The translations under genes were made by a program, and so were the position numbers. Under the pieces are notes generated by a model. That model ran no database searches. It saw only the letters and a program-made list of their open reading frames with translations, and was not told where the DNA came from. From Candidatus Acetothermia bacterium (GTDB lineage Bacteria; Bipolaricaulota; Bipolaricaulia; RBG-16-55-9; DRXL01), in the NCBI GenBank assembly GCA_022683945.1, contig JAJHSH010000067.1, forward strand, positions 2,085 to 66,084: a stretch of DNA of 64,000 nt, read 5' to 3'. Of the stretch, positions 1-57,965 are shown piece after piece (within the stretch, counting starts at the first letter, position 1; the number at the start of each line of letters is the position of its first letter).

Positions 1-441
1 GGCTGCGTCTCCATCGGCTCGCTTTACACGTTCGGGCTCTGCGGGATCTTTGAAGTGAAAGAGAACGGAGAGTGGGGCCCACGCACCACCCCACAGCAGA
101 AGGGCATCAAAATAAAAAGCCGTGACGAAGCGCTCAGGGTTTTGGCCGACTGGAATCTCTCAAGGCCGGAGTGGCAGCACTTCTATTCCCATCAGCTCAA
201 GAGCGAGATGCTCATGCGCATCGTCAGAGAATGGAAAGTGGACGGCGTGCTCTTGCACTTCAATCGGGGATGTGAGGGTCTGTCGTTGGGGATCGCTGAG
301 AATAGACTCGCGCTGCAAAAGGCGGGGATTCCCGTGACGCCCTTCGAGGGCAACATGGGCGACTGTCGGGAGTTCGACAAGGCGCGCACGCTGACACGGG
401 TGGACGCGTTTATGGAATCGTTGGGGGTGAAAAAATTATGA
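1..441 (+). CDS. 2-hydroxyacyl-CoA dehydratase / benzoyl-CoA reductase (HgdB/BcrB-like) subunit, C-terminal part; 5' end lies outside the window
   Basis: Frame 1 is open from nt 1 (no stop before the ORF-track Met at 55). The stop overlaps the ATG of the next gene (ATGA at 438-441). C-terminal region resembles HAD/BCR-family subunits (recalled similarity), and two activase ATPases follow. Confidence 0.5.
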
Positions 442-1217
442 TCACCGCGGGAATTGATTGCGGAGCTAGAACGGTCAAAGCTCTGGTTCTACAGGACGGC
501 ACAGTGTTGGGAAAGGGCGCAGCCCTCACGGGCTTCGATCAACAAGCGGCCATCACGCAGGCGTTCCAGAGCGCGTTGCAGCAAGCAAGCCTCGGACACT
601 CTCAGATTCAGCATATCACCGCCACAGGTATCGGGCACAACGCGGTCTCATTCGCTCAGAGCCAGATCACCGAAGTCAGCGCCGATGCCAAAGCAGCAGT
701 CTTTCTCTTCCCCACAGCGCGCACTGTCCTCGATGTCGGCGCGGAAGAGGGCCGGGCTATTCGTTGCGAAGCCGATGGCAGAGTCAAAGATTTTGCCGTG
801 AACGAGAAGTGCGCCGCCGGCGCGGGGACGTTCATCGAGACGATGGCGCGCACGCTGGAGATCAAGCTCGAAGAGGCCGGGGCGCTCTCGCTTAAAGCGA
901 CGAAAGTGATCCCGATGAACGCCCAGTGCGCCGTCTTCGCCGAAAGCGAAGTCGTCTCGCTCATTCACTCTGGGGTCGCCAAAGAAGAAATCATTCGCGC
1001 GGTGCACGAGTCCATGGCCGACAGAATCGGCGCGATGGCGCGTCGCGTGGGGATAGAGAGAGAAGTCGTGCTCGTCGGCGGCGTAGGGCGCGATCAGGGA
1101 TTTATCAGATCGCTCTCGGAGGAGCTGGGCTTTGCGCTCTTAGTCCCCGAAGACCCTGAATACGCCGGTGCGCTCGGTGCAGCGCTGATGGCTGCCGAGC
1201 GTGCTCAAGGAGGTTGA
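438..1217 (+). CDS. CoA-substrate-specific enzyme activase (BadF/BadG/BcrA/BcrD/HgdC ATPase family), copy 1
   Basis: 259 aa, acetate/sugar-kinase fold ATPase. N-terminal [10 protein letters not shown] motif. Two conserved Cys motifs typical of HgdC-type activators (NEKCAAGAG and [12 protein letters not shown]) for the bridging [4Fe-4S] cluster. Confidence 0.85.
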
Positions 1218-1221
1218 CTTT

Positions 1222-2121
1222 ATGGCAGAAGCAGTGGCAACTGCAACACCACAGAAGCGCGAGTACTGGCGCTGGACGGAGTATAACTGGCGTGACGAAT
1301 CCCTCGATTGGCGAGGAGCGCGCGTGATCTCCGTGGGCATTGACGTCGGTTCCGTCAGCTCTCAAGCTGTGATCCTCTGCGACGGAAAGCTCTTCGCTTA
1401 CAGCAGCTTACGCACGGGATCTAACTCTCCTACAAGTGCGCAGCGGGCGCTCGACGCGGCTCTAGAAAAGACCGAGGTGCCCCGCGAAAAGATTCACTAT
1501 ATCGTCGCGACGGGCTATGGGCGGGTCAATATCCCGATTGCGCACAAAGCGATTACCGAGATCGCCTGTCACGCGCGCGGCGCGAATTTTATATACGGGC
1601 CGACGGTGCGAACGGTCTTAGACATGGGCGGACAGGACTGCAAAGCCATTCGCTGCGACGAGAAGGGCAAAGTGACGAATTTTCTGATGAACGATAAGTG
1701 CGCCGCGGGCACGGGCCGCGGGATGGAGGTCATGGCCGATCTCTTGCAAGTGCCCATCGAAGAAGTTGGCCCGGCTTCGCTCGCCGTGGACGAAGAACCT
1801 CCGCCGGTCAGCAGCACGTGTGTGGTCTTCGCCAAATCAGAAGTTTTGAGTCTGTTGCGCTTGGGTTGGCCGCGAGAGAGGGTCTTAGCGGCCTTCTGTT
1901 CTGCGATGGCCCATCGGACGGTTGAATTATTGATGCGCATCGGCGTCGAGCGCGAGTTTGCTATTACGGGGGGTATTGCCAAGAATGTCGGGATCGTGCA
2001 GCGAGTCAAGCGCGAGTTAGGGATCGAAGCTCTGAAGCCTAAGATAGACCCGCAGATCGCCGGGGCGTTGGGCGCAGCGCTCTTCGCCAAGGCCCTCTAT
2101 GAGAAGGAGCAGAAACAATAA
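1222..2121 (+). CDS. CoA-substrate-specific enzyme activase (BcrA/BcrD/HgdC family), copy 2
   Basis: Same family but a different sequence (ISVGIDVGSVSSQAV; NDKCAAGTG; STCVVFAKSEV). ATG at 1222 is preceded by AAGGAGG at 1207-1213; the ORF-track start at 1201 overlaps the previous gene. Confidence 0.85.
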   Translation: MAEAVATATPQKREYWRWTEYNWRDESLDWRGARVISVGIDVGSVSSQAVILCDGKLFAYSSLRTGSNSPTSAQRALDAALEKTEVPREKIHYIVATGYGRVNIPIAHKAITEIACHARGANFIYGPTVRTVLDMGGQDCKAIRCDEKGKVTNFLMNDKCAAGTGRGMEVMADLLQVPIEEVGPASLAVDEEPPPVSSTCVVFAKSEVLSLLRLGWPRERVLAAFCSAMAHRTVELLMRIGVEREFAITGGIAKNVGIVQRVKRELGIEALKPKIDPQIAGALGAALFAKALYEKEQKQ

Positions 2122-13857: not shown

Positions 13858-14175
13858 ATGGCTCAGGGAGTCTTGGAACGAATTCTCGATGCCGAAGAAC
13901 AGGCCGATCAGATCAAGATAGCCGCGCAAAAAGAAGCCGAGGCTCTTTGTGCGCAAGCGCGCCAAGGTGCAGCGTCACTGATAGAAGAGCACAAACAGAA
14001 AGCGCGCGCCGAGGCCGAGGCGCTCATCGCCACAGAAGAGAAGAAAGCCCAACAAGAAGCAGAAGAGATTCGTCATCACGGGGAAGCGAAAGCCAAGCTG
14101 CTTCAAAAAGAAGCTGCTGCTAAAATCGCTAAAGCCGTAGATCTGGTATTAGAGAGAGTGGTGCGTCGCGCATGA
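13858..14175 (+). CDS. A/V-type ATP synthase small peripheral-stalk subunit (G/H-like)
   Basis: 105 aa, charged coiled-coil (AEEQADQIKIAAQKEAEAL...). First gene of the operon as in Thermus atpG-I-K-E-C-F-A-B-D. AAGGAG 8 nt upstream. Confidence 0.6.
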   Translation: MAQGVLERILDAEEQADQIKIAAQKEAEALCAQARQGAASLIEEHKQKARAEAEALIATEEKKAQQEAEEIRHHGEAKAKLLQKEAAAKIAKAVDLVLERVVRRA

Positions 14176-16340
14176 GCTTGGCCAAGATGGAACAGATCCG
14201 TCTGGTGGGCCACGAGACGGAACGCGAGCGCACACTCGCCTTGCTCCAAGATCTGGGAGTCGTACAAATATCGGATCTCACACAAGAGCTTCCGCAAATG
14301 ACCAATGGTGGCTTCACGCCTAAACCGGTCCGGGACAATAATCTGGAAAGCACGCTGGCCGCGCTGCGCTATGCGCTCGATTTCATCGCGCGCTACGATC
14401 AAGAGAAGAAGGGCTTCATTCAGGGATTCTTCAATCTCAAAGACGCAATCACCACGGACGAGCTTGCGCAGCTGGCGCGCAGCTATGACTATCGCGCTCT
14501 CTGCGAGCGGGTGCGCGTACTCGACCGAGAGCTCTTGGAGCTGCGCTCCGAGAAGACGCAGCTAGAAGCGCGCCGCGCTGAACTTCTCCCCTGGACCGCG
14601 CTGACGACCCCGCTGGAGTCTTTGCAGAGATCAGCGCGGACAGCGCTGCTCTTAGGACGCATGCCCAAGACCTCTCTCTCTCTCTTAGAGAAAGCCCTTC
14701 AGAGTAAACTCGGCGATCTGTCAATTGTCGAGAGCGTCTCAACCGACGAACAGATGATCTATCTCTATGCGATTCTTCCTAAAGAGAGCGAAGAAGAGTT
14801 CACAAAGATCGCTTCAGAGCATGGCTGGGAGCGGCTGGCGTTTCAGAGTCTGCCGGCAAACGCCACCGGGACTGTGCAAGAATGGTTGGCCCAAACGGAG
14901 CAACGCTTGCAGGAGATCGTTACACGTCAAGCTCAATCAGAACAACAAGCTCAAGAGATCGTTGGAGAGAAACGCAAGCTCCAAGCCCTCTATGACCATT
15001 TCTATAACGAACAGTTAAAATTCAGTTCGCAAACGATGCTGGTGGGCAGCGCGAACACATTTGTCTTGGGCGGGTGGATTCGCGCAGTAGATTATGAGAA
15101 GCTGGCACAAACGCTCCAACAAGCTGGCGCAACGGTCTGGCTGGAGCGAGTGCCGCCCAAGACCGATGAGAGACCGCCGGTCGCTTTGGAGAATCGGATG
15201 CTCTTCCAGCCCGCAGAATTTTTGATAAGACTCTTCGGACTGCCCAAGAGAAACGAGCTCGACCCCACGCCCTTTGTCTTGCCCTTCTTTGCGATCTTCT
15301 TCGGCATCGCGCTGACGGACGCGGGTTACGGACTGGTTCTGATGATCGCGTTTTGGGTGCTCAAGCGAAAATATCGGCATAAACTTGGTTTTCAGTCTTT
15401 TGCCAATCTGATGATCCTGGGCGGGCTTTCAGCGGTGATCGCCGGAGCGCTCACCGGAGGCTGGTTCGGGCCGGAGCTGGCCCAGAGCTTCTCTGTGTTG
15501 AGAGCGCTTATGCTCTTCGATATAAACACGCCGTCGGGACTGATCGCTTTTTTGTTTTTCTCTTTTGCGCTCGGCTTCGTGCAGGTTCTGCTGGGAAATC
15601 TCTTGGAATTTTACGACAAAGTGCGGACTGGTCGCTTCTGGGAGGGCTTCTGGTGCGAGGGCACATGGATTGTTTTTATGATAGGGCTAGGAGTGGTCGC
15701 GGGTGCCGCCGTGCCCGCGATGATGCCCAAGGAGCTGAACGCTCCGGGGCTGCCTCTCCCTTGGATGGATTTCGGTACTCGTTTGGCGCTGCTAGGCACA
15801 TTTTTGGTGCTCTTCTTCAGTCGCGTGGAGTCCCCCCAAAAGCTGGGGAAGCAGGTCCCTTGGCTCTTTTTAGCTTTCGGCTTGACGCTCTGGATATTAA
15901 AATCGTCAGAATGGCCTCTCGGCGAGATCTTAGTGGCTTTGGGTGCGCTGGGCATCGTCGTGGGCGGTGGCCTGCGCAGGGCGCTAGGACGGGTCGGCGC
16001 CGGGGCTTTTAAGCTCTACGGCGCTACGGGACTCTTGGGGGATATCCTCTCGTACAGCCGTATTATGGCTCTGGGGGTCTCTACAGGGCTGATTGCCAAT
16101 TCGATGAACAAACTCTCTTTGATGACCTGGGAGCTTCCCTTGGTGGGGCCGGTAATCTGTATTGTTTTTATTGTTTTCTTACAGACGTTCAGCATTTTAA
16201 TCAACTCGCTCTCGGCGTTTGTACATTCTGCTCGTCTGCACTATGTCGAGTTCTTCACGAAGTTTTATGAAGCCGGAGGTGAGGCCTTCAAGCCTTTTGC
16301 GCGAGCATCTGTGTATTACGAAGTTCGAGAGAAACGCTGA
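14172..16340 (+). CDS. atpI: A/V-type ATP synthase subunit I (a subunit)
   Basis: 722 aa. Hydrophilic coiled-coil N-terminal half plus a multi-TM C-terminal half with conserved Arg region (SYSRIMALGVSTGLIA). Confidence 0.85.
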   Translation: MSLAKMEQIRLVGHETERERTLALLQDLGVVQISDLTQELPQMTNGGFTPKPVRDNNLESTLAALRYALDFIARYDQEKKGFIQGFFNLKDAITTDELAQLARSYDYRALCERVRVLDRELLELRSEKTQLEARRAELLPWTALTTPLESLQRSARTALLLGRMPKTSLSLLEKALQSKLGDLSIVESVSTDEQMIYLYAILPKESEEEFTKIASEHGWERLAFQSLPANATGTVQEWLAQTEQRLQEIVTRQAQSEQQAQEIVGEKRKLQALYDHFYNEQLKFSSQTMLVGSANTFVLGGWIRAVDYEKLAQTLQQAGATVWLERVPPKTDERPPVALENRMLFQPAEFLIRLFGLPKRNELDPTPFVLPFFAIFFGIALTDAGYGLVLMIAFWVLKRKYRHKLGFQSFANLMILGGLSAVIAGALTGGWFGPELAQSFSVLRALMLFDINTPSGLIAFLFFSFALGFVQVLLGNLLEFYDKVRTGRFWEGFWCEGTWIVFMIGLGVVAGAAVPAMMPKELNAPGLPLPWMDFGTRLALLGTFLVLFFSRVESPQKLGKQVPWLFLAFGLTLWILKSSEWPLGEILVALGALGIVVGGGLRRALGRVGAGAFKLYGATGLLGDILSYSRIMALGVSTGLIANSMNKLSLMTWELPLVGPVICIVFIVFLQTFSILINSLSAFVHSARLHYVEFFTKFYEAGGEAFKPFARASVYYEVREKR

Positions 16341-16865
<525 letters not shown>

Positions 16866-16868
16866 ACT

Positions 16869-17465
16869 ATGAGCGCGGAGAAGATCGTCGAGAAGATCTT
16901 AAGCGAAGCGCGGGCCGAAGCGCAGTCTATTTTAGAGAAGGCCCGTGCGCAAACGCAGGAGATCCGTCAGCAAGCACAAACCGAAGCGCAACGCCAAGCA
17001 GAGCAGATACTGACCCAAGCCCGCGAAGAGGCTCAGAGCCGACGGCGGGCGCAGCTCTCGCAGGCGCAGCTCGCCGCGCGCAACGCCGTTCTGAACGCGC
17101 GCCGCACTGCGCTGACTCAAGTTTTCACGGAGGCAGAGACGCGCCTGCAGCAGATGCCCGCAGACGACTACCGCGCTTGGCTCTTGCAGATGATCCCGCA
17201 GGCCGCCCAGAGAGGGGACGAAGAACTGATACTCTCTACGTCCGATAGGCAAGCGCTGGAGGAGGCGTTTCTGCGCGAACTCAACGAGAAGCTCTCTCAG
17301 ATGGGCAAGCGCGGACAGATGAAGTTCTCGAGCGAGACTCGCGAGCTTGGACGCGGCTTCGTGCTCAAGGGCACAAACAGCGAGACCAATATGACCCTGA
17401 CGATGCTGCTCAAACAAGCCCAAGAGGAGCTGGAGATGGACGTGGCGCGTCTGCTCTTCTCGTGA
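16869..17465 (+). CDS. atpE: A/V-type ATP synthase subunit E
   Basis: 198 aa, N-terminal coiled coil (IVEKILSEARAEAQSILEKARAQTQEI) and operon position. Confidence 0.8.
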   Translation: MSAEKIVEKILSEARAEAQSILEKARAQTQEIRQQAQTEAQRQAEQILTQAREEAQSRRRAQLSQAQLAARNAVLNARRTALTQVFTEAETRLQQMPADDYRAWLLQMIPQAAQRGDEELILSTSDRQALEEAFLRELNEKLSQMGKRGQMKFSSETRELGRGFVLKGTNSETNMTLTMLLKQAQEELEMDVARLLFS

Positions 17466-18496
17466 CATTTACTATGTCGGTAGAACTGCTGGAGACGAAG
17501 TTTCGCCAAGACGGGGCCTACGGTTTTACGACGGGGCAGATTCGCGCCCTCGAAGCGAAGTTGCTCGACGGAGCGAAGTATCAGCGTATGCTCGAGGCTT
17601 CCGATGCAACGGAAGCCTGGCGCGCTCTCGCAGAAGCGGGCTACGCCAACGCCGCGGCGGCAAAATTGGACAGCTATGACCAAGCGCTGCAGAGCGAACT
17701 GCGCGAGCTATATGAGCTGGTGCGCCGCCTGACCGTGCGCCCGTGCGAGACCGATTGGTTGGCGCAACGCTATGATTTTCACCATCTGAAAGTCTATTTG
17801 AAAGCAAAGCTCTTGAGCGAAGATCCGGGGGAGAGCCTCGTGTCGGGCGTGGGGTTGGTTCCCCCCAAATTGATAGAAACAGCAGTACAAACAGAGATCT
17901 GGAGTGCGCTCCCGGAAGAACTTGCACAGGCGGGCGCGCGCGCCTCTCGCGAGTATCAGACGACCAAGCAAGCTCAGACGCTCGATATAATTATAGATAC
18001 GGAGTCGTTCGCTCTTATAAAGAGAAATGTCGCCGGACATCCCTATCTAGAAACGCTCGTCGCCCTGTGGACGGATCTGCTCAACTTGAAGACCCTCTTG
18101 CGCGCCAAGCTGCTCCATAGAGAGCGCGCCTTTGTGGAACGTGCGCTCTTGCCGGCAGGGATGCTAGAGAAGAGCCGACTCTTGAAGCTCTTCGAGAGCG
18201 CGCTGGAGACCTGGGCAGAAGAGCTGCGTCACACCGAATATGGCAATCTCATAGCGCGCAGCCTGCGTGCGTGGGAAGAGCAGAAATCTCTAGCGCTCCT
18301 AGAGAAGCTCAGCGACGATCTGGTCACCAGCTATCTGAAGCGGGCGAAGCTGGCCCTCTATGGCGTCGAGCCGTTGGTCGCGTATGTGTTGGCAAAGGAG
18401 ATCGAACTGAAAAATATCCGAATGATCCTGATCGGCAAGCTGAACGGGTTGAGCAGAGAAGCGATCGCCGAGCGTTTGAGGGTCTCGTATGTCTAA
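17462..18496 (+). CDS. atpC: A/V-type ATP synthase subunit C (V-type d)
   Basis: 344 aa helical protein between E and F; translationally coupled (overlapping stop/start). Confidence 0.7.
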   Translation: MTFTMSVELLETKFRQDGAYGFTTGQIRALEAKLLDGAKYQRMLEASDATEAWRALAEAGYANAAAAKLDSYDQALQSELRELYELVRRLTVRPCETDWLAQRYDFHHLKVYLKAKLLSEDPGESLVSGVGLVPPKLIETAVQTEIWSALPEELAQAGARASREYQTTKQAQTLDIIIDTESFALIKRNVAGHPYLETLVALWTDLLNLKTLLRAKLLHRERAFVERALLPAGMLEKSRLLKLFESALETWAEELRHTEYGNLIARSLRAWEEQKSLALLEKLSDDLVTSYLKRAKLALYGVEPLVAYVLAKEIELKNIRMILIGKLNGLSREAIAERLRVSYV

Positions 18497-18812
18497 GATC
18501 GCCATCGTCGGCAGAAAAGACGTCTATTTGGGGTTCAAAGCGCTGGGGTTGAGAGTCGTAGACGCGCGCACGGCCTCCGAGGCCGAGCCGGCGATCCAAG
18601 AGCTCGTGGCCCAAGAGTATGTGATTATCTTTATCGCAGAGAGTTTGGCTGCTGAGTTGGGAAGCGTGATCGAGCGCTATCGCAAGCAAGCGACTCCGGC
18701 AATGGTGATGATCCCCGATAATCGGGGGAGCTTGGGGATCGCGCGCGAGCGCGTGCGCAAATTGGTAGAACGCGCTGTGGGGATTGATATTCTCTCGCGC
18801 AAAGAGACCTAA
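18489..18812 (+). CDS. atpF: A/V-type ATP synthase subunit F
   Basis: 107 aa; MSKIAIVGRKDVYLGFKALGL...VIIFIAESLAAEL is typical of V/A subunit F. Confidence 0.8.
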   Translation: MSKIAIVGRKDVYLGFKALGLRVVDARTASEAEPAIQELVAQEYVIIFIAESLAAELGSVIERYRKQATPAMVMIPDNRGSLGIARERVRKLVERAVGIDILSRKET

Positions 18813-18820
18813 CCCCCTGG

Positions 18821-18844
18821 CCCCCTTCCCTAAAGGGAAGGGGG
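18821..18844. repeat. GC-rich hairpin CCCCCTTCCC-TAAA-GGGAAGGGGG between atpF and atpA
   Basis: Perfect 10-bp stem, identical to the stem at 44005-44029. Confidence 0.7.
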
Positions 18845-18869
18845 AGAGGTGAAATTAGGAGGATTGTTT

Positions 18870-20654
18870 ATGGCAACGGGAAGAATCGTGAAAGTCGCAG
18901 GGCCGCTAGTCGTCGCTGAAGGCTTAGCGGACGCGAAGATGTACGAAGTGGTGCGCGTTGGAAAAGAACGCTTGGTCGGCGAAGTGATCGTGCTCGATGG
19001 CGACTTGGCTTCGATCCAAGTTTATGAAGAGACGGCGGGACTGGGGCCCGGCGATCCCGTAGAGGGGACAGGCGAGCCGCTCTCGGTTGAGCTTGGGCCG
19101 GGGGTTATCAGTTCTATTTACGACGGCATTCAGCGCCCACTCGAAGCTATACAAGCCCGCTGGGGGGCTTATATTCGTCGCGGAGTCGAAGCCGCGGCGC
19201 TCGACCGCACCAAGAGATGGGGATTTACGCCCAAAGTTAAAAAGGGCGAGGCCCTCTCGGCCGGCGATCTTCTGGGCCTTGTGCAAGAGACGACGCTGGT
19301 GGAGCACCGCGTCATGGTGCCGCCCGGTCTGTCTGGCACGATAGAAGAGATTCGCGCCGGAGAGTTCACTGTAGAGCAGACGATTGGGGTGCTCAAGGAC
19401 GCTCAGGGGAAGCGTCACGAACTAAAGATGATGCAGCGCTGGCCGGTGCGTCGAGCCCGGCCCTATACTGAAAAACTGCCCAGCACCGAGCTGTTGACCA
19501 CCGGACAACGCATTGTAGATACACTTTTTTCATTGGCCAAGGGCGGGACGGCCTGTGTGCCGGGGCCGTTTGGCTCAGGGAAGACGGTCATTCAACATCA
19601 GCTCGCTAAATGGGCCGACGCGCAAGTGATTGTCTTTGTGGGTTGCGGCGAGCGCGGCAACGAGATGACCGACGTGCTGATGGAGTTCCCCGAACTCGAA
19701 GACCCGAAAACGGGCGAACCTCTGATGAAGCGCACGGTGCTCATTGCCAATACGTCCAATATGCCCGTCGCCGCGCGCGAGGCTTCTGTCTATACGGGAA
19801 TCACTATCGCCGAGTATTTCAGAGACATGGGCTACAGCGTCGCGCTCATGGCCGATTCGACGTCGCGGTGGGCCGAGGCGATGCGCGAGATCTCTGGGCG
19901 CTTAGAGGAGATGCCCGGCGAGGAGGGCTACCCGGCCTATCTGGGCTCGCGCACGGCAGATTTTTACGCGCGCGCAGGCCGAGTCATCTGTTTGGGCACC
20001 CCTAGGCGCGAAGGCAGCCTCTCGGCCATCGGCGCGGTCTCGCCTCCCGGCGGCGATCTCTCTGAACCCGTCACCCAGAACACCTTGAGATTAGTGAAAG
20101 TCTTCTGGGGGCTCGATGCCAATCTCGCCTATAGACGACACTTCCCGGCGATCAACTGGCTGGCGAGTTACTCGCTCTACAACGACGATCTGATCCCGTA
20201 TTTCGAGAAGCACGTCGGCGCAGAATGGAATCTCCTGCGGGAAGAGTTCATGAAGCTGCTCCAGATCGAAGCCGAGCTCGAAGAGATTGTGAGATTAGTG
20301 GGTGTAGAAGCGCTCTCGCCAGCCGATCGCTTAAAATTGGAAGTGGCTCGCTCGATTCGTGAAGACTTTTTAATGCAAAGCGCTTTCGACGAAGTCGACA
20401 CGTTCTCTTCGCTATCCAAGCAATTGAAGATGATGCAGCTTATCCAGCGCTTCTATGATCTGGGGCAGCGGGCGATTGAGCATGGCGTGGCCATTCAGAA
20501 GATTATAGAGCTGGCGGTGCGCGAGCGCATCGCCAAGGCCAAATTCATCCCGGAGCATCAATTTGAGCAGAGCTTCCCAGAGATAGATCGAGAGATTCAG
20601 CGAGCGTTCGAGAGTTTGCTGGCAGGAGGAGCGCATGCAGCGAGAGTACACTAG
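18870..20654 (+). CDS. atpA: A/V-type ATP synthase catalytic subunit A
   Basis: Start at ATG 18870 (AGGAGG 6 nt upstream). Walker A GPFGSGKT; non-homologous insert region typical of the A subunit; about 594 aa, no intein. Confidence 0.95.
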
Positions 20655-22026
20655 CATTTCGGAGATCTCCGGTCCCATTATGATTGTTGAGGGGGTCGGC
20701 GGGGTCACGTTTGAAGAATTGGTCGAGATCGAACTGGCGGGCGGCGAGATCCGGCGCGGGCGCGTGCTGGAGATCAACAGAGACAAAGCGGTCATCCAGC
20801 TCTTTGAAGCCGCACAGGGCCTGAATCTGCACCAGAGCCGCGTGCGCTTCTTGGGCAAAGTAATGGAGCTGGGCGTCTCTGAAGATATGTTGGGAAGGGT
20901 CTTCGACGGCGCAGGACGGCCCATAGACGGCGGCCCCCAGATCATCCCGGAGAAGAGACTGCCCATCACCGGCGAGCCGCTCAATCCGTACTCGCGGGAC
21001 TACCCAAATGAATTCATCCAGACGGGTATCTCGGTCATTGACGGGCTGAACACATTAGTGCGTGGCCAGAAGCTCCCGATCTTTTCGGGATCGGGGCTGC
21101 CGCATAACAAATTGGCCGCTCAAGTCGCGCGCCAAGCGAAAGTCTTGGGCACGGGCGAAGAGTTTGCCGTTGTCTTCGGCGCTATGGGCATTACGTTCGA
21201 AGAAGCCAATTTCTTTATCACAGATTTGCGTAAGACGGGCGCGCTCGAACGCTCCGTGATGTTTGTCAATCTAGCCGATGACCCGGTGATCGAGCGCATC
21301 ACGACCCCCAGATTGGTACTCACGTGTGCGGAATATCTTGCGTTTGAGCGCGATCTGCACGTCTTGGTCATCTTGACGGATCTGACCAATTACGCCGAGG
21401 CGCTGCGCGAGGTGAGCGCCGCCCGTAAAGAGATCCCCGGACGGCGCGGCTACCCCGGCTATATGTACACCGACTTAAGTACTATTTATGAGCGCGCGGG
21501 ACGAATCAAGGGCAAGAAGGGTTCTATTACTCAGATGCCCATCTTGACGATGCCTCAAGACGACAAGACCCATCCCATCCCTGATCTGACGGGCTATATT
21601 ACCGAAGGTCAGCTCTTTCTCTCTCGAGAGCTGCACCGCAAGGGCATCTATCCCCCGTTTGACGTGCTGCCCTGTCTGTCGCGCTTGAAAGACAAGGGCA
21701 TCGGGAAGGGCAAGACCAGAGAAGACCACGCCGGCGTGCTCAACCAACTCTATGCTGCCTATGCGCGCGGCATAGACGTCCGCGAGATGGCCGCGATCTT
21801 AGGCGAGGCTGCTCTGAGCAAATCCGACAAACTCTACTGGAGATTCTCGGACGAGTTCGAGCGGCGCTTTATTCAGCAAGGCGAATACGAAGACCGGACG
21901 ATTATTCAGACGTTGACGATCGGTTGGGAGCTATTGAGTATGTTGCCGCGCGGCGAGCTCAAGCGTGTGCGGGACGAGTTTATTGAGAAATATCTGCCCA
22001 AGCAAGCCGAGACCGTCGCAGCGTAA
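20635..22026 (+). CDS. atpB: A/V-type ATP synthase subunit B
   Basis: 463 aa, regulatory B-subunit similarity throughout (SGSGLPHN..., [12 protein letters not shown]). Confidence 0.95.
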
Positions 22027-22049
22027 AGCGTAAGAGGAAGTGAGAGACG

Positions 22050-22682
22050 ATGGCCGTCGCTCAACGAGTGAACGCAACCCGGATGGAGTTGCTCAAACAG
22101 AAGAAGCGTTTGGCGATGGCCAAGCGTGGGCATAAACTCTTGAAACAGAAGCGCGACGAGCTGATGCACCGATTCTTGCAGTTGGTCGAAGAGACGCGCG
22201 GCTTGCGCGAGCGCGTTGAAGAAAAGCTAGCCCGTGGGTTTCGCAGCTTCTTGCTCGCTCGCGCGGAGATGTCCAAAGAATTCATGGAAGAAGCTCTGAT
22301 GACGGGCGCGAGCAGCAACGGTGCGCTGCGCTTGCGCACCGAATCGGTGATGAGCGTCTGGGTGCCGCGCTTCGATTATGCTGATCGTCGCGACATCTAT
22401 GCCTACGGGTTTGCGGCTACTTCGGCAGAATTAGATACGGCACTGACGCTCTTTCAAGAAGTGCTGCCGGAGATGATCAAGCTCGCAGAGATCGAGAAGT
22501 CTCTAGAGCTGTTAGCAGAAGAGATCGAGACGACGCGCCGCAGAGTGAACGCGCTGGAGCGCGTGCTGATCCCGCAGATTGATGAGAATATCAAGAGAAT
22601 TTCGATGGCCTTGGACGAGATGGAGCGCAGCAGCCGGGCGTCGCTGATGCGGATTAAAGAGATCATTCGCGGTGAGGCTTAG
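22050..22682 (+). CDS. atpD: A/V-type ATP synthase subunit D
   Basis: 210 aa; MAVAQRVNATRMELLKQKKRLAMAKRGHKLLKQKRDELM is the typical subunit-D N-terminus. Confidence 0.9.
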   Translation: MAVAQRVNATRMELLKQKKRLAMAKRGHKLLKQKRDELMHRFLQLVEETRGLRERVEEKLARGFRSFLLARAEMSKEFMEEALMTGASSNGALRLRTESVMSVWVPRFDYADRRDIYAYGFAATSAELDTALTLFQEVLPEMIKLAEIEKSLELLAEEIETTRRRVNALERVLIPQIDENIKRISMALDEMERSSRASLMRIKEIIRGEA

Positions 22683-22686
22683 GGGG

Positions 22687-22773
22687 TGCCGAGGGCGGGA
22701 CTCGAACCCGCACGGAGGGTTGGCCCCCAACGGATTTTAAGTCCGTAGCGTCTGCCGATTCCGCCACCCCGGC
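22687..22773 (-). tRNA. tRNA-Leu (anticodon TAA), long variable arm, CCA not encoded
   Basis: Reverse complement GCCGGGGTGGCGGAATCGGCAGACGCTACGGACTTAAAATCCGTTGGGGGCCAACCCTCCGTGCGGGTTCGAGTCCCGCCCTCGGCA folds as a cloverleaf (7-bp acceptor with one G-U, anticodon loop CTTAAAA, T-arm GCGGG/CCCGC) and closely resembles E. coli tRNA-Leu. Confidence 0.8.
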
Positions 22774-22848
22774 TGGAGCGGGTGACGGGATTTGAACCCG
22801 CGACCTTCTGCATGGCAAGCAGACGCTCTACCGCTGAGCTACACCCGC
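22774..22848 (-). tRNA. tRNA-Gly (anticodon GCC), CCA encoded
   Basis: Reverse complement GCGGGTGTAGCTCAGCGGTAGAGCGTCTGCTTGCCATGCAGAAGGTCGCGGGTTCAAATCCCGTCACCCGCTCCA; anticodon loop TTGCCAT. Its 3' CCA directly abuts the 5' G of tRNA-Leu. Confidence 0.8.
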
Positions 22849-25200: not shown

Positions 25201-26271
25201 CTAGCGCGCGCGGCTCTCCAAGGCCTGCCATAGCCCGGCATAATCGCCCCGCGGGTTCCAGAAGAGATAGCTCTCTATGCCAAGTTCGTGCGCCGCACGC
25301 AATTGCGCCTGAATATATTGTGTATAAGTCATGGTTGCAGGAATGCGCATCTCGAAAGCCTGCAAGAAGGGCCGCAACGAGAGCCCGCGCTCCTGCCCAG
25401 CCGAGATCGCTTTCTTGATAGTGCCATATGGATCCGCACGAAGCGCTTCGGTCTCATAGTGCGAGGGGTAGATCATCGGCGAGAGGACATTCACATAGCG
25501 CTGAAAGGTCTCCAAGTGTTGCCCGATGGGATCTATCTTTTTCAGATTCCAAGACCAGAGCGCCCGCCCGAAGACGTCGGCCGAGAGCGCGATCTTCTTA
25601 TGAAGCTCTCTGTGTGCACGCTGCAAGAAACGCTCAATAGCCGCGTAACGCTCAGCGTAGATGGGTTGATAAACTCCACCGTCGGGCCAGCGCACATAGT
25701 CAAACTGTATCTCGTCAAAGCCCAGCATGGCTACTTCCTCAGCAATGGCTAAATTATATTCTTGCACGCGCTCGTCGGCTGGGGAGACCCAACGCCCCGA
25801 CTCGCGCTCTGTCTTCAGCGCATCTAAATATTGCGCCAGTTTGGGATCGTAGAAGAGCACTTGACGGGCGATGAGATAGAAGCCCTGTGCTTTGAGCTGG
25901 GGGAGCAGTTCGCCTAATTTCAGTATGGGCCGCCGCGCGCCGATCTTCTGGACTAAAGAGACTTTTGTGTCATAATAGACCAGACCGTGATTATCTTTGA
26001 TGTCAATGACCAATGCGTTAAAACCGACGCGTCGCGCGTTCTCCGTGATCGTTTGGAGCTTTTTGGGATGGGCTGCGACGTGAGCGGGCAGATAGACTCC
26101 ACGGATAGGCTTATGCGCAACGGACGGCGCTGCAGGCACGGGAATCTGAGCCGGCTGCGCGACCAACAGCAAGAGCGCCAGCGTCGCCAGTACAAACCCT
26201 GCTCCCAAGAGACCGAAGATTCTCCAGATGCGGATGCGAAAGAAACGATAAGTGTTTTTCAAACAGGCCAA
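25201..26271 (-). CDS. Membrane-anchored putative glycoside-hydrolase-like TIM-barrel protein (DUF4015/GHL-type), hypothetical
   Basis: 356 aa; N-terminal TM anchor (IFGLLGAGFVLATLALLLLVA), then a domain resembling uncharacterised GH-like families (GVYLPAH..., NALVIDIKD, FDEIQFDYVRWPD). Weak assignment. Confidence 0.4.
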   Translation of the reverse strand: MACLKNTYRFFRIRIWRIFGLLGAGFVLATLALLLLVAQPAQIPVPAAPSVAHKPIRGVYLPAHVAAHPKKLQTITENARRVGFNALVIDIKDNHGLVYYDTKVSLVQKIGARRPILKLGELLPQLKAQGFYLIARQVLFYDPKLAQYLDALKTERESGRWVSPADERVQEYNLAIAEEVAMLGFDEIQFDYVRWPDGGVYQPIYAERYAAIERFLQRAHRELHKKIALSADVFGRALWSWNLKKIDPIGQHLETFQRYVNVLSPMIYPSHYETEALRADPYGTIKKAISAGQERGLSLRPFLQAFEMRIPATMTYTQYIQAQLRAAHELGIESYLFWNPRGDYAGLWQALESRAR

Positions 26272-26342
26272 CTCCTCAGCGTCAGAGCGGGCCTCCGAAT
26301 CGTTTATAATCTAGAGCCACAGAAGGAGACAACCAAGGTCAT

Positions 26343-27587
26343 ATGTCCATTCTCCTAGAGAAAGCCCGCCAGTTGCTGGCAGAGCGAGAGCTCTGTGATC
26401 ACTGTCTGGGACGGTTCTTCTCGTCGTTGGGGTCCGGGCTGCGCAATCGCGAGCGCGGACGCGCCCTGCGCGTTGTGCTGCAGATGGAAGACCGCTCGAT
26501 AGCGCTCTCCCAGAATCACTGCGCTCTCTGTCAGGGGATCTTTACCAACGTGAGCAACTGGGCCGAGCGCGCCGTGACGGCCGTGTCGAATCTAGAGTTT
26601 CAGACATATCTGATGGGGACGCGCGTACCCACAGAGATCGAAGTCGTCGAACAGGCCCTTCAGCAAAAATTTGAACTGCGAGGCGAGCCGTTCAAGCAGG
26701 AGTTCAATCGCGAGGTGGGGCGTCTGTTCGGTACGCTCTTGGCCGAGCGCGGCCACCCCGTCCAAGTAGACTTTCGCGAGCCACAGATCGTTCTGGTCAT
26801 GGACTTAGAGAAATCTGAGCTGGCGCTTCAGATCAATTCGCTCTTTATCTATGGGCGCTATCGAAAGCTGGTGCGGACGATCCCTCAAACCAAGTGGCCC
26901 TGTCGGTCGTGTCGGGGGCGGGGCTGTCGAGAGTGCGACTTCACGGGCAAGACTTATCCAGAGAGCGTAGAAGAACTCATCAGTCCGCCGCTGTTGCGCG
27001 AGACCCACGGGAGTGGGACGGCCTTTCACGGCGCGGGACGAGAAGATATAGACGCCCTGATGTTGGGAAATGGTCGTCCCTTTGTCATAGAGATCAAAGA
27101 ACCAAAAGTTCGAACGCTCGATCTAGAGCTTCTCCACGGAGAGATCAACGAGCGCGCTCTAGGCAAGATAGAAGTCTCTCAGTTGCAATTTGTTCCCAGT
27201 TCCGTTGTCGAGCGCCTGAAGAATTTAGAAGCCGAGAAGCTCTACGAAGCGCGAGTGCGGTTCTCTAAAAAAATTAGCCCAACTTGTCTGCACGAAGCCT
27301 TCGCGATGCTCCAAAAGACTCCGATTCAACAAAGAACACCCCAGCGGGTGAGCCATCGCCGCGCCGATCTGGTGCGCACACGGCGGGTTCTAGAGATCTC
27401 CGGTGAGCTCACCAGTCCGACCGAAGCGCTGGTTAGAGTTCACAGCGAGGGCGGGCTTTATATCAAAGAGCTCATATCGGGCGACGGTGGGCGAACGAAG
27501 CCCAGCCTCAGTGAGCTATTGCAGACGCCCGCCGAAGTGATAGAACTGAACGTCTTGGAGGTCATCGGGGATTTTTTGTCAAAATAG
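26343..27587 (+). CDS. tRNA pseudouridine synthase Pus10-like protein (archaeal/eukaryal type)
   Basis: 414 aa. N-terminal zinc-ribbon Cys pairs (CDHC...CALC; CRSCRGRGCREC), GAGREDIDALMLGNGRPF (Pus10 catalytic-Asp motif as recalled), and YIKELISGDGGRTKPS (Pus10 thumb-loop signature as recalled). Confidence 0.65.
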   Translation: MSILLEKARQLLAERELCDHCLGRFFSSLGSGLRNRERGRALRVVLQMEDRSIALSQNHCALCQGIFTNVSNWAERAVTAVSNLEFQTYLMGTRVPTEIEVVEQALQQKFELRGEPFKQEFNREVGRLFGTLLAERGHPVQVDFREPQIVLVMDLEKSELALQINSLFIYGRYRKLVRTIPQTKWPCRSCRGRGCRECDFTGKTYPESVEELISPPLLRETHGSGTAFHGAGREDIDALMLGNGRPFVIEIKEPKVRTLDLELLHGEINERALGKIEVSQLQFVPSSVVERLKNLEAEKLYEARVRFSKKISPTCLHEAFAMLQKTPIQQRTPQRVSHRRADLVRTRRVLEISGELTSPTEALVRVHSEGGLYIKELISGDGGRTKPSLSELLQTPAEVIELNVLEVIGDFLSK

Positions 27588-44112: not shown

Positions 44113-45184
44113 GTGCTCCAAGAACTTCGCGACCGCCTTACGCAGATCGCTGATCGCCTTTGACTTGTCGGCTCTAGAAGCCGAACTCAAAACGCTGGAA
44201 GATCAGATGGCCGTTCCCGGTTTTTGGCAGGAGAGAGAGCGAGCGAAGCTCCTCTCCCAGCAAGTCGAGCAGAAGCGCCGAATTCTTCAGAAATATCAAG
44301 CGCTTGAGACCCAGCTCGACGACTTAGAAGTCTTAGAGGAGTTGGGCAAGGCCGAGGGCGACCCCTCCGTCGAGCGCGAGGTTCAGCTTGGCGCTCAGGA
44401 GTTCGGAAAGCGTTTAGAGATACTCGAACTTGAAGCCTTTCTCAATGAGCCCTACGACGAGAACGATTGTTATCTCAGCATCAACGCCGGCGCTGGGGGC
44501 ACCGACGCACAAGACTGGGCCGAGATGCTCCTGAGAATGTATTTGCGCTACCTCGAAAGACGGCGTTGGCGAGCAAGTTTGATCGAAGTCAGCCCCGGCG
44601 AAGTCGCTGGAATTAAGAGCGCCACGGTCGAAATCTCTGGGCCGTATGCGTATGGCTATCTGAAGGCCGAGCGCGGCGTCCATCGGTTGGTGCGAATCTC
44701 GCCGTTTGACGCGAACGCCCGGCGGCACACGTCGTTTGCCGCCGTTACGGCAGTTCCCAAGGTCGAAGAGGCCGACGTCGAGATCCGCCCGGAAGATTTG
44801 CGCATTGACACCTATCGCGCCGGAGGAGCGGGCGGCCAACACGTCAATAAGACAGATTCTGCTGTGAGAATCACGCACCTGCCCACGGGGATCGTCGTGG
44901 CGTGTCAAAAAGAGAGAAGTCAGCACCAGAACAAAGCCATCGCGATGGAGATTCTCACGGCGCGTTTATATGAACTGAATCTTCGAGAGAAAGAAAAAGA
45001 GTTAGCAAAAGTGCGCGGGGAGCTGCGCGCGATTGAGTGGGGCAGCCAGATTCGGTCGTATGTCTTGCAGCCCTATCAGTTGGTGAAAGACCATCGCACG
45101 GAGATCGAAGTCGGGAACGTACAGGCTGTCTTGGACGGCGAGCTGGATACTTTTATTGAGGGGTATCTGAGACGGAAGCGATAA
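44113..45184 (+). CDS. prfB: Peptide chain release factor 2, with programmed +1 ribosomal frameshift
   Basis: Frame-0 leader GTG(44113)...CGC CTT TGA C with in-frame TGA at 44161-44163. Shifting +1 at CTT (44158-44160) joins to DLSALEAELK... (ORF-track 44165). SPF (RISPFD) and GGQ (GAGGQHVN) motifs present. AAGGAGG upstream of the GTG. Confidence 0.85.
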
Positions 45185-56610: not shown

Positions 56611-57000
56611 TTACCAAGTGATGGTCTGGAGACCTGCAATGTCCTGGAAGTGGTCATCGCGCGTGGCAAGCGTGAGCTGATGTTGCTGTGCGAGCGCCGC
56701 AATCCAGATGTCGTTTTCCGGCAGTGGCCGTCCCTTCAAGCGCAGGAGGTTCTTGACCTCCCCGTAGTGGCGGGCGGTTTCGGTGTCGCAGACCAGCACT
56801 ACTCCGCTGGCGGCCAAGTCGTCAATGCGCGCCAGATTCTGGCTCGGTCGGCCCGACTTCCGCGCGCCATAGTACAACTCGCCCAGCACGATGCTGGGCA
56901 GAAACACCTCCGCCGCCTGGGCGAGTTGCTGCTTGACTTCGGCTTCGTCGGCAAACAGGGCGATGAGGATATTGGTGTCAAGCAAGTATCTACCATTCAT
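56611..57000 (-). CDS. vapC: PIN-domain toxin VapC
   Basis: Start at Met 11 of the ORF-track call (MNGRYLLDTNILIA); PIN acidic residues (D..N, E, D); 11-nt overlap with the upstream antitoxin gene. Confidence 0.8.
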   Translation of the reverse strand: MNGRYLLDTNILIALFADEAEVKQQLAQAAEVFLPSIVLGELYYGARKSGRPSQNLARIDDLAASGVVLVCDTETARHYGEVKNLLRLKGRPLPENDIWIAALAQQHQLTLATRDDHFQDIAGLQTITW

Positions 57001-57217
57001 GGGGATCGACCTGCTCACATCCTTGGTCAATAGCGTCGCGAATGAGAGTCACATCGTCCAGAGGGATGACACCGGCAAAGCGGAGGAGTTGCTGGCCGGG
57101 GACACCGTGGGGAGTCGATAGCGCTAAGGCACGAGTAAACTCGAGTACCCGCCATTGCAACTCGTGGGGCAGGGCTTTCAGTTGTTCAATGACCTTCTCG
57201 ATAATGGGCGTTTCCAT
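56990..57217 (-). CDS. VapB-type antitoxin (small helical protein)
   Basis: 75 aa ORF overlapping the vapC start; family not recognised. Confidence 0.5.
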   Translation of the reverse strand: METPIIEKVIEQLKALPHELQWRVLEFTRALALSTPHGVPGQQLLRFAGVIPLDDVTLIRDAIDQGCEQVDPHEW

Positions 57218-57341
57218 CGTGACCTCCTCTCCCTCCGAATCTTATCTCAGTTCCAGATCGCGTGTTTTGAGGCTGCCGAACCGCGCTGGCTAACGCTCAG
57301 CATCAGCGGCGGCGCGCAGCGCTATCCACTGCAACCGGTTG

Positions 57342-57827: not shown

Positions 57828-57867
57828 CACCTCGGAGTTCGGCTTGCTGACGCATAACTATTGATTA

Positions 57868-57944
57868 GACGGCATTCTGCGGTCTCATCTCTTTTCGCCG
57901 GCAATTATAAACCCGACTCGGCTCGCTGTCAACATCTGTTGAAC
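57868..57944 (-). promoter_or_regulatory. Repeat copy A: consensus promoter TTGACA-N17-TATAAT (minus strand) with palindrome GTCAACA-TC-TGTTGAA over the -35
   Basis: Minus-strand -35 = reverse complement of 57927-57932, -10 = reverse complement of 57904-57909. About 85% identical over about 80 nt to 59204-59279. Confidence 0.6.
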
Positions 57945-57965
57945 TGTGTGCTTTAGAGCGCACTT

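What the first reader, a model, noticed from the sequence alone, without database searches (positions are those of the whole stretch)
26343..27587. Archaeal/eukaryal-type tRNA pseudouridine synthase Pus10 homolog in a bacterial chromosome
The 414-aa protein carries what I recall as Pus10 hallmarks: N-terminal zinc-ribbon Cys pairs (CDHC...CALC and CRSCRGRGCREC), the catalytic-Asp block GAGREDIDALMLGNGRPFVIEIKEP, and the thumb-loop signature YIKELISGDGGRTKPS. The rest of the window is unambiguously bacterial (frr, tsaD, lexA/recA, prfB frameshift, bacterial tRNA-Gly). Pus10 makes Psi54/Psi55 in archaea and eukaryotes, whereas bacteria normally use TruB. A bacterial Pus10 would therefore be a lateral acquisition, possibly with a different substrate.
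Basis: partly seen in the sequence, partly recalled or inferred. Interest (0 to 1): 0.65.

Follow-up and report, generated by a model that had tools for sequence, protein, structure and literature searches.

The report
Archaeal-type Pus10 tRNA pseudouridine synthase in Bipolaricaulota
This bacterial chromosome (phylum Bipolaricaulota) carries an intact, selectively maintained copy of Pus10, the enzyme archaea use to make the pseudouridines in the tRNA T-loop; reviews say Pus10 is absent from bacteria, yet it seems to be inherited across this whole phylum.

Summary
ORF 26343-27587 (+) encodes a 414-aa protein that is a full-length Pus10. It scores 509 bits on NCBIfam TIGR01213 (cut-off 200) and matches Pfam Pus10_THUMP_arc and Pus10_C. 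An AlphaFold model (pLDDT 93.7) has human PUS10 (2v9k) as its best structural match. Every residue shown by mutagenesis to matter in M. jannaschii Pus10 is present, including the forefinger-loop and thumb-loop determinants of Psi54 activity.

The surrounding genes are bacterial: frr, tsaD, prfB with its +1 frameshift, rpsA, plsY and recA. The gene's GC and GC3 match the host, and dN/dS is about 0.09.

Homologues occur in dozens of Bipolaricaulota/Acetothermia/Fraserbacteria MAGs, down to about 42% identity, in bacterial contexts and often beside the same DUF4015 gene. In a neighbour-joining tree they group together next to Halobacteria and Thermoplasmatota Pus10, but deep nodes are weakly supported.

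Best reading: one ancient archaeon-to-bacterium transfer, then vertical inheritance. The enzyme most likely makes Psi55, and probably Psi54, in tRNA.

I could not check whether TruB is missing from these genomes. PGAP and IMG already name these proteins Pus10, but I found no paper describing bacterial Pus10, and reviews say there is none. This is a new member of a known kind, of moderate interest.

The parts
26343..27587 (+). pus10 gene, 414 aa plus stop
   Evidence: ORF. TIGR01213 at 509 bits. Pfam Pus10_THUMP_arc plus Pus10_C. AlphaFold model pLDDT 93.7. Best PDB fold match is human PUS10, TM 0.74. dN/dS 0.094 against a relative with 96.6% nucleotide identity.
26343..26552 (+). N-terminal zinc-binding region (residues 1-70) with CxxC pairs C18/C21 and C60/C63
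   Evidence: The four Cys are invariant in alignments A1 and A2. They correspond to the Zn-binding Cys31/34/106/109 of MjPus10 and to the Zn site of human PUS10 described in PMC3753934.
26559..26804 (+). THUMP RNA-binding domain (residues 73-154)
   Evidence: Pfam PF22023 Pus10_THUMP_arc, E=3.5e-20, residues 73-154 covering profile 1-78 of 78.
26844..27563 (+). Pseudouridine synthase catalytic domain (residues 168-407)
   Evidence: Pfam PF21238 Pus10_C, E=3.1e-67, profile 1-231 of 232. Aligns to human PUS10 residues 286-520.
26901..26969 (+). Forefinger-loop region (residues 187-209): four-Cys knuckle C187/C190/C195/C198, then CDFTGKTYPESV
   Evidence: Same spacing to the catalytic Asp as Mj ffl1 (C227-R231) and ffl2 (C238-V249), whose deletion abolishes Psi54 activity. 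Residues. The knuckle is present in 33 of 33 bacteria-labelled sequences.
27039..27053 (+). Catalytic motif R233-E-D235-I-D237 (D235 is the catalytic Asp)
   Evidence: R233, D235 and D237 are invariant or nearly invariant. They correspond to Mj R273/D275/D277.
27354..27362 (+). Thumb-loop 'hook' H338-R339-R340
   Evidence: Corresponds to Mj H376/R377, which contribute to Psi54 activity. The xHRRAD motif is found in most bacterial sequences. Local pLDDT dips to 67, consistent with a flexible loop.
27243..27245 (+). Conserved active-site Tyr301
   Evidence: Invariant in A1 and A2. Corresponds to Mj Y339, which is required for Psi54 activity.
27462..27467 (+). Active-site I374-K375 within YIKELISGD
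   Evidence: K375 is invariant. Corresponds to Mj I412/K413.
27546..27548 (+). Conserved Leu402
   Evidence: Invariant. Corresponds to Mj L440, required for Psi54 and, in combination with other residues, for Psi55.
26272..26342 (.). 71-bp divergent intergenic region, with a TATAAT hexamer at 26305-26310 and GAAGGAGA at 26322-26329 upstream of the ATG
   Evidence: Read directly from the sequence. The consensus promoter scan found no full -35/-10 pair, so a promoter is only suggested.
25201..26271 (-). DUF4015 gene, divergently transcribed; conserved neighbour of pus10 in Bipolaricaulota (context, not part of the enzyme)
   Evidence: Pfam PF13200. tblastn finds it directly upstream of pus10 in 12 other bacterial loci, at 78% down to 44% identity, and in no archaeal locus.
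22685..22848 (-). tRNA-Gly(GCC) and tRNA-Leu(TAA), examples of presumed substrates, with T-loops G53-TTCAAAT-C61 and G53-TTCGAGT-C61
   Evidence: ARAGORN and Rfam. Sequence. Both carry U54 and U55.

Best explanation
The gene encodes a functional stand-alone tRNA pseudouridine synthase of the Pus10 family. It has an N-terminal Zn site, a THUMP domain and a Pus10 catalytic domain.

Its origin is archaeal, specifically euryarchaeal, nearest to Halobacteria and Thermoplasmatota. An ancestor of the bacterial phylum Bipolaricaulota (Acetothermia/OP1, including 'Fraserbacteria') acquired it once, long ago, and it has been inherited vertically since.

The following mechanism is inferred, not shown. 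The THUMP/Zn module docks on the acceptor/T arm of bacterial tRNAs. The forefinger and thumb loops clamp the T-loop. Asp235 then isomerises U55, and most likely also U54, to pseudouridine. That would give these bacteria an archaeal-style Psi54-Psi55 T-loop in place of the usual bacterial m5U54-Psi55. Whether it has displaced TruB (and TrmA/TrmFO) or works alongside them is not known.
For: Family membership: TIGR01213 equivalog at 509 bits against a cut-off of 200, full length. Both Pus10 Pfam domains match. The AlphaFold model has pLDDT 93.7 and pTM 0.87. Its best PDB match is human PUS10 at TM 0.74, with TruA, Cbf5 and TruB far behind.

Functional residues: R233/D235/D237, Y301, H338/R339, I374/K375, L402, both Zn Cys pairs and the full-length forefinger segment are all present. 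They map one to one onto the residues tested by mutagenesis in MjPus10.

Selection: dN/dS is 0.094, from 32 synonymous and 10 non-synonymous differences.

Bacterial host: Frr, TsaD, RF2 with the CTT TGA C frameshift, S1, PlsY and RecA lie in the window. RecX, RuvA and HU lie just beyond it. The same arrangement appears in independent JGI, NCBI and Logan assemblies. GC and GC3 z-scores are about 0.

Phylum-wide distribution: about 110 of the top 120 homologues, and 23 species-representative genome loci, are labelled Bipolaricaulota, Acetothermia or Fraserbacteria. Their contexts include RuvX, MutL, RsmH, PBP and sigma-70 genes. The DUF4015 neighbour is conserved.

Tree: bacterial sequences cluster beside Halobacteria, next to a Thermoplasmatota clade, with Methanocellales, DPANN and Heimdall further out.

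Plausibility in a bacterial cell: MjPus10 expressed in E. coli makes Psi54 and Psi55 in bacterial tRNAs and outcompetes TrmA.
Against: There is no biochemical or modification-mapping data for any Bipolaricaulota. The tree is neighbour-joining with a simple distance correction, and the deep nodes have only 10-48% bootstrap support. The donor lineage is therefore unresolved. Strict monophyly of the bacterial sequences is also unresolved: P0123, P0134 and L012 fall just outside the main clade. Psi54 activity is predicted only from conserved determinants. TruB, TrmA/TrmFO and TrmY status is unknown, because only about 84 kb of this genome and about 20 kb per related genome could be read. A TruB probe found nothing there, but that says little.
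Confidence: 0.75

Rival explanations
1. Pus10 coexists with a normal bacterial TruB and is specialised, as in humans. It would make only Psi54, perhaps in a subset of tRNAs, while TruB makes Psi55.
For: TruB is close to universal in bacteria (general knowledge). In mammals TRUB1 and PUS10 coexist, with PUS10 mainly responsible for Psi54 in select tRNAs. The tRNA-Gly T-loop here, GUUCAAAUC, equals the preferred human PUS10 Psi54 motif quoted.
Against: No TruB gene was seen in any sequence held, although coverage is tiny. The protein resembles dual-specificity archaeal enzymes, not the human one.
Confidence: 0.3
2. The enzyme has been recruited to a non-tRNA substrate such as tmRNA, rRNA or mRNA.
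For: A new host could favour a new target. T-loop-like motifs exist in other RNAs (review, section heading on other T-loop RNAs).
Against: Every determinant tied to T-arm recognition is conserved across the bacterial clade under strong purifying selection: THUMP, Zn site, forefinger and thumb. No domain has been gained or lost.
Confidence: 0.08
3. The gene is not bacterial. It would be an assembly or binning artefact that brought archaeal DNA into a bacterial MAG.
For: The source is a metagenome-assembled genome.
Against: The gene lies in the middle of a 64-kb window, on a 145-kb contig, flanked on both sides by bacterial genes. The identical arrangement occurs in at least eight independent assemblies. 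Composition equals the host's. Dozens of related bacterial contigs carry it next to bacterial hallmark genes.
Confidence: 0.01
4. There was no transfer. Pus10 was present in the last common ancestor of Bacteria and Archaea, and among bacteria only Bipolaricaulota, a deep-branching phylum, kept it.
For: Bipolaricaulota is described as deep-branching. Deep nodes of the tree are weakly supported.
Against: The bacterial sequences are 45-50% identical to Halobacteria and Methanocellales Pus10, but only 34-44% identical to many other archaeal representatives. In the tree they sit inside the archaeal radiation, not outside it. This scenario would also require loss in every other bacterial phylum.
Confidence: 0.06

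Closest known systems
Archaeal Pus10 (PsuX; COG1258; TIGR01213), e.g. Methanocaldococcus jannaschii and Haloferax volcanii Pus10, the tRNA Psi54/Psi55 synthases
   Same: Same three-part architecture and a full-length profile match. Same catalytic R-x-D-x-D motif, Tyr, Ile-Lys and Leu. Same forefinger ffl1/ffl2 segments with the four-Cys knuckle and the same His-Arg thumb hook. 45-50% identity to Halobacteria and Methanocellales proteins.
   Different: The host is a bacterium, with bacterial tRNAs (encoded CCA), a bacterial-type ribosome-binding site, and possibly co-resident TruB/TrmA-type enzymes. The linker between the two N-terminal CxxC pairs is short, 34-40 residues against a median of 58 in representatives. 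Activity is untested.
Pyrococcus furiosus Pus10 (Psi55-only variant)
   Same: Same family and same catalytic core.
   Different: PfuPus10 lacks ffl1/ffl2 and has Asn-Ser in place of the His-Arg hook. The window protein has both features, so it resembles the dual-site type.
Human PUS10 (PDB 2v9k)
   Same: Best structural match (TM 0.74). The catalytic domain aligns over residues 164-407.
   Different: Only 24% identity in the structural alignment. The human protein is longer (530 aa) and lacks the ffl2 segment. In cells it mainly makes Psi54 in selected tRNAs alongside TRUB1.
Bacterial TruB (TIGR00431, COG0130), the usual bacterial tRNA Psi55 synthase
   Same: Same expected product (Psi55) and the same general pseudouridine-synthase fold (TruB chains at TM about 0.3).
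   Different: A different family. There is no TruB profile hit; the only related hit is Cbf5 at 18 bits against a cut-off of 242. TruB has a PUA domain where Pus10 has THUMP, and it does not modify U54.

Membership tests
Pus10 (TIGR01213 / COG1258) | Full-length match to the curated equivalog model above its cut-off | tested here: met
   509.4 bits against a cut-off of 200; residues 6-407 cover profile 1-401 of 402.
Pus10 (TIGR01213 / COG1258) | Pus10-type catalytic domain (PF21238) | tested here: met
   227 bits against a cut-off of 27; profile 1-231 of 232.
Pus10 (TIGR01213 / COG1258) | THUMP RNA-binding domain N-terminal to the catalytic domain | tested here: met
   PF22023 at 72.4 bits against a cut-off of 28; profile 1-78 of 78.
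Pus10 (TIGR01213 / COG1258) | N-terminal four-Cys zinc site | tested here: met
   C18, C21, C60 and C63 are invariant in 42 sequences. The feature is described. Metal binding itself was not tested.
Pus10 (TIGR01213 / COG1258) | Catalytic Asp within R-x-D-x-D, plus conserved Tyr, Ile-Lys and Leu | tested here: met
   R233, D235, D237, Y301, I374, K375 and L402, matched to the residue list.
Pus10 (TIGR01213 / COG1258) | Three-dimensional fold like the solved PUS10 structure | tested here: met
   Model pLDDT 93.7. 2v9k ranks first at E=2.6e-30 and TM 0.74; the next family (TruA) is at TM 0.40.
Pus10 (TIGR01213 / COG1258) | Forms Psi55 (and Psi54) in tRNA | not testable with these tools
   Needs enzyme assays or modification mapping. 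Only heterologous data for MjPus10 in E. coli are available.
Dual-site (Psi54+Psi55) Pus10 subtype | Full-length forefinger loop (ffl1+ffl2) and His-Arg thumb hook | tested here: met
   C187-R191 and C198-V209 have the same spacing to the catalytic Asp as Mj C227-R231 and C238-V249. H338-R339 are present.
Archaeal-style T-loop modification system (Pus10 without TruB/TrmA; optional TrmY) | Absence of truB and trmA/trmFO, or presence of trmY, in the same genome | not testable with these tools
   Whole genomes could not be read. A TruB tblastn probe found nothing in the window or in 93 loci, but these cover only a few percent of any genome.
TruB/Cbf5 family | Match to TruB or Cbf5 models | tested here: not met
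   The only hit is a Cbf5 model at 18.1 bits against a cut-off of 242. TruB structures score TM about 0.3.

The most novel reading that the evidence does not exclude
Bipolaricaulota as a phylum have replaced the near-universal bacterial T-loop enzymes (TruB, and perhaps TrmA/TrmFO) with an archaeal Pus10. Their tRNAs would then carry Psi54-Psi55 like archaeal tRNAs. This would be the first bacterial lineage with an archaeal-type T-loop, and a case of non-orthologous displacement of a gene used as a universal bacterial marker.
Probability: 0.35. Interest if true: 0.7.

Novelty: new member of a known kind. Interest (0 to 1): 0.5.

Why it matters
Reviews of tRNA modification state that Pus10 occurs in Archaea and Eukarya but not in Bacteria, and that Psi54 is absent from bacterial tRNA. 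An intact Pus10 under purifying selection, spread across a whole bacterial phylum, contradicts the first statement and makes the second doubtful.

It also provides a natural experiment on whether the T-loop enzymes TruB/TrmA and Pus10 are interchangeable between domains. So far this has only been shown by expressing MjPus10 in E. coli.

truB (TIGR00431) is, as I recall, one of the marker genes used for bacterial phylogenomics and completeness estimates. Its loss from this phylum would therefore also have practical consequences.

A cultured Bipolaricaulota strain has recently been reported, so the prediction can now be tested directly.

Tried and rejected
(1) TruB search. This is uninformative because so little of each genome is held. 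I extended the window by about 10 kb at each end and saw no truB, trmA, trmFO or trmY.

(2) I decided against spending a large-database search on TruB. Only the 120 best hits are shown, and they would all be close relatives of the query, so a Bipolaricaulota TruB would not be visible even if it exists.

(3) Supplementary tables of three Bipolaricaulota genome papers and one preprint were searched for 'pseudouridine', 'truB' and 'Pus10'. Nothing was found, or no files were held.

(4) Literature searches for bacterial Pus10 or COG1258 found no description. Fitzek et al. 2018 is not held.

(5) Co-transfer with the adjacent V/A-ATPase operon is rejected. No other bacterial or archaeal pus10 locus has ATPase genes nearby.

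(6) Recent horizontal transfer or a genomic island is rejected. Composition equals the host's and no mobile-element genes flank the gene.

(7) The N-terminal linker length was tried as a shared-indel marker for the donor lineage. It is too widely distributed (47 representatives) to be diagnostic.

(8) The MjPus10 sequence was not among the fetched proteins. Residue mapping relies on motif spacing and on the paper's residue numbers.

(9) The sigma-70 promoter scan found no full consensus pair upstream.

Full report
**Observation.** Its translation contains every motif quoted.

Profile searches leave no doubt about the family. NCBIfam TIGR01213, 'tRNA pseudouridine(54/55) synthase Pus10', matches end to end. 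Residues 6-407 cover profile positions 1-401 of 402, at 509 bits against a curated cut-off of 200. Pfam finds Pus10_THUMP_arc at residues 73-154 (72 bits) and Pus10_C at residues 168-407 (227 bits). The only related solved structure by sequence is human PUS10, 2v9k, at E=4.8e-30.

An AlphaFold2 model built on a 42-sequence alignment is confident, with mean pLDDT 93.7 and pTM 0.87. Foldseek against the PDB ranks 2v9k first, at E=2.6e-30 and TM 0.74 over the whole chain. TruA, Cbf5, PUS3 and TruB follow far behind at TM 0.27-0.40.

**Anatomy.** I aligned the protein with bacterial and archaeal homologues. I then compared the alignment with the mutagenesis study of M. jannaschii Pus10, PMC3753934. 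The window protein has the following features.
- An N-terminal Zn site formed by C18/C21 and C60/C63, corresponding to Mj C31/C34/C106/C109.
- The catalytic motif R233-E-D235-I-D237, corresponding to Mj R273/D275/D277.
- Y301 (Mj Y339), I374-K375 (Mj I412/K413) and L402 (Mj L440).
- Both determinants that separate dual-site Psi54+Psi55 enzymes from the Psi55-only Pyrococcus enzyme.

The first determinant is a full-length forefinger region. C187-R191 and C198-V209 have the same length, end residues and distance to the catalytic Asp as Mj ffl1 (C227-R231) and ffl2 (C238-V249). The second determinant is the His-Arg thumb hook, H338-R339 here and H376/R377 in Mj. Residue identities were checked.

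CRSCRGRGCREC is the forefinger-region Cys knuckle, not part of the N-terminal zinc ribbon. YIKELISGD is the Ile-Lys active-site motif, not the thumb loop.

**The host is a bacterium and the gene belongs to it.** The window encodes ribosome recycling factor, bacterial TsaD, RF2, Cmk, IspH, ribosomal protein S1, PlsY and RecA, all above the NCBIfam cut-offs. RF2 shows the classical programmed +1 frameshift, CTT TGA C at 44156-44162. The two tRNA genes are ordinary bacterial ones; tRNA-Gly, the only one I checked, has an encoded CCA. RecX, MutY-like, HU, bacterial ProRS and RuvA genes appear just inside or just beyond the window.

The exact Pus10 protein, in the same gene order, is found in at least eight independently assembled contigs. 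These include a 145,665-bp JGI contig and the NCBI MAGs GCA_022683915.1 and GCA_022684025.1. A variant with 98% amino-acid identity is found in 16 more contigs.

The gene's GC (0.565) and GC3 (0.658) sit at the mean of the 56 longer ORFs of the window, with z-scores of 0.01 and -0.05. No mobile-element genes flank it. Against the relative with 96.6% nucleotide identity there are 32 synonymous and 10 non-synonymous differences, giving dN/dS of 0.094. Contamination, pseudogene status and recent island acquisition can therefore all be set aside.

**Distribution.** In the 5.8-billion-protein search, the best 110 or so hits run from 98% down to about 50% identity. Every one of these that carries an organism name is labelled Candidatus Bipolaricaulota, Acetothermia, Bipolaricaulia or Fraserbacteria. 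Archaeal names (Methanocellales, Halorutilales) first appear at about 50% identity.

Among one-genome-per-species contigs, 23 of the best 80 loci are bacterial. They carry the same labels, plus four MAGs labelled 'uncultured Thermotogae' or 'Gemmatimonadaceae'. In the tree, three of these four (L032, L047, L078) cluster with Bipolaricaulota; the fourth, L012, falls just outside the main clade but shares the DUF4015 neighbour. The rest of the 80 are mostly Halobacteria. Two more divergent representatives at 40-44% identity are also Acetothermia/Bipolaricaulota.

Contexts in divergent members are clearly bacterial: RuvX, MutL, RsmH, FtsL/DivIC, a PBP transpeptidase and sigma-70. A DUF4015 gene transcribed divergently from pus10, as at 25201-26271 here, is found in 12 other bacterial loci at 78% down to 44% identity. 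It is found in no archaeal locus. This argues for long vertical inheritance within the phylum. All 33 bacteria-labelled sequences keep the four-Cys forefinger knuckle, and nearly all keep the xHRRAD thumb motif.

**Origin.** I aligned 168 sequences: the bacterial loci, named archaeal loci, and full-length representatives from the search of the library clustered at 50% identity. I built a neighbour-joining tree with 100 bootstraps on 399 trimmed columns.

The bacterial sequences fall together. A main clade of 42 contains 32 of the 33 bacteria-labelled sequences; the other 10 members are unnamed, and none carries an archaeal label. P0123 and P0134 (both named bacterial), the unnamed P0129 that groups with them, and L012 lie just outside it. 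This group lies next to the Halobacteria clade. The next large clade contains Thermoplasmatota. Methanocellales, DPANN and Heimdallarchaeota are further away.

Support for the deep nodes is only 10-48%. The donor lineage and the strict monophyly of the bacterial sequences are therefore not resolved. Even so, the position inside the archaeal radiation favours an archaeon-to-bacterium transfer over retention from a common ancestor. So does the higher identity to Halobacteria and Methanocellales (45-50%) than to many other archaeal representatives (34-44%).

Crown Halobacteria have mostly lost the forefinger Cys knuckle that the bacterial proteins keep. The transfer therefore did not come from within crown Halobacteria.

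**Mechanism (inferred).** Pus10 is a stand-alone enzyme. Its THUMP/Zn module and its forefinger and thumb loops hold the tRNA T-arm, and the catalytic Asp isomerises U55 and, in most archaea, U54.

All these elements are conserved here, and the local tRNA genes have the universal U54-U55. An archaeal Pus10 works in a bacterial cell: MjPus10 expressed in E. coli forms both Psi54 and Psi55 in bacterial tRNAs and blocks m5U54 formation by TrmA.

I therefore consider the most likely function to be Psi55 formation, and probably Psi54 formation, in Bipolaricaulota tRNAs. What is shown is family membership, intact catalytic and specificity determinants, purifying selection, bacterial residence, and spread across many Bipolaricaulota lineages. 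What is inferred is the substrate, the sites modified, and the transfer scenario.

**What could not be settled.** The key question is whether Pus10 has displaced TruB (and TrmA/TrmFO) or coexists with it. That needs whole genomes, which the tools did not provide. Only about 84 kb of this genome and about 20 kb around pus10 in relatives were readable. A TruB probe found nothing there, which means little. Supplementary tables of Bipolaricaulota genome papers gave nothing.

**Novelty.** The protein family is well known. PGAP and IMG already label these MAG proteins 'tRNA pseudouridine(54/55) synthase Pus10', so the fact is present in databases.

In the literature library, however, no paper mentions Pus10 together with Acetothermia or Bipolaricaulota. 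Specialist papers state that Pus10 is 'not in Bacteria' and link this to the absence of Psi54 from bacterial tRNA.

I classify this as a new member of a known kind, in an unexpected domain of life. Interest is moderate (0.5). It would rise if truB proves to be absent from the phylum or if Psi54 is found in its tRNAs. A cultured representative now exists, so this is directly testable.

Noticed in passing
window 13858-22682 (+): A complete V/A-type (archaeal-type) ATPase operon with subunits I, K/c, E, C, F, A, B and D lies 3.6 kb upstream of pus10. It is not linked to pus10 in any other bacterial or archaeal locus examined, so co-transfer is unlikely.
   Followed up: partly
window 44114-45184 (+): prfB (RF2) with the canonical programmed +1 frameshift. 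A GTG start at 44114 is followed by CTT TGA C at 44156-44162, and the main ORF from 44165 matches TIGR00020 positions 19-353.
   Followed up: yes
window 22685-22848 (-): tRNA-Gly(GCC) and tRNA-Leu(TAA) abut with no spacer: the encoded CCA of tRNA-Gly is followed immediately by the first base of tRNA-Leu. The tRNA-Gly T-loop GTTCAAATC equals the sequence reported as optimal for human PUS10 Psi54 activity.
   Followed up: partly
window 25201-26271 (-): A DUF4015 (PF13200) gene with a predicted N-terminal membrane segment is a conserved, divergently transcribed neighbour of pus10 across Bipolaricaulota, at 78% down to 44% identity in 12 loci. Its function, and the reason for the linkage, are unknown.
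   Followed up: partly
window 56611-58241 (-) and about 33.8 kb; L085 17360-17918: Several toxin-antitoxin-like pairs are present: a PIN-domain gene, ParE/PhdYeFM, and DUF433/DUF5615. The DUF433/DUF5615 pair is present in this strain but absent from the strain whose Pus10 is 98% identical (L081), so it is a small strain-specific insertion.
   Followed up: no
Halobacterial loci L016-L080 compared with bacterial loci: By a motif regex, 12 of the 13 sampled Halobacteria-group Pus10 proteins (all but the Halorutilales one) lack the four-Cys forefinger knuckle (W-x-C-x2-C...C-x2-C). All bacterial copies, Methanocellales, Heimdallarchaeota and 87 of 108 representatives keep it.
   Followed up: partly
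window 438-2121 (+) and L092 7520-11684: A 2-hydroxyacyl-CoA dehydratase-type cluster (two HGD-D subunits plus two BcrAD/BadFG activator ATPases) with enoyl-CoA hydratase genes spans the start of the window.
   Followed up: no
L012, L032, L047, L078: Four public MAGs labelled 'uncultured Thermotogae bacterium' or 'uncultured Gemmatimonadaceae bacterium' carry Pus10. L032, L047 and L078 cluster with Bipolaricaulota Pus10 in the tree; L012 falls just outside the main clade but shares the DUF4015 neighbour. Their taxonomic labels are probably wrong.
   Followed up: partly
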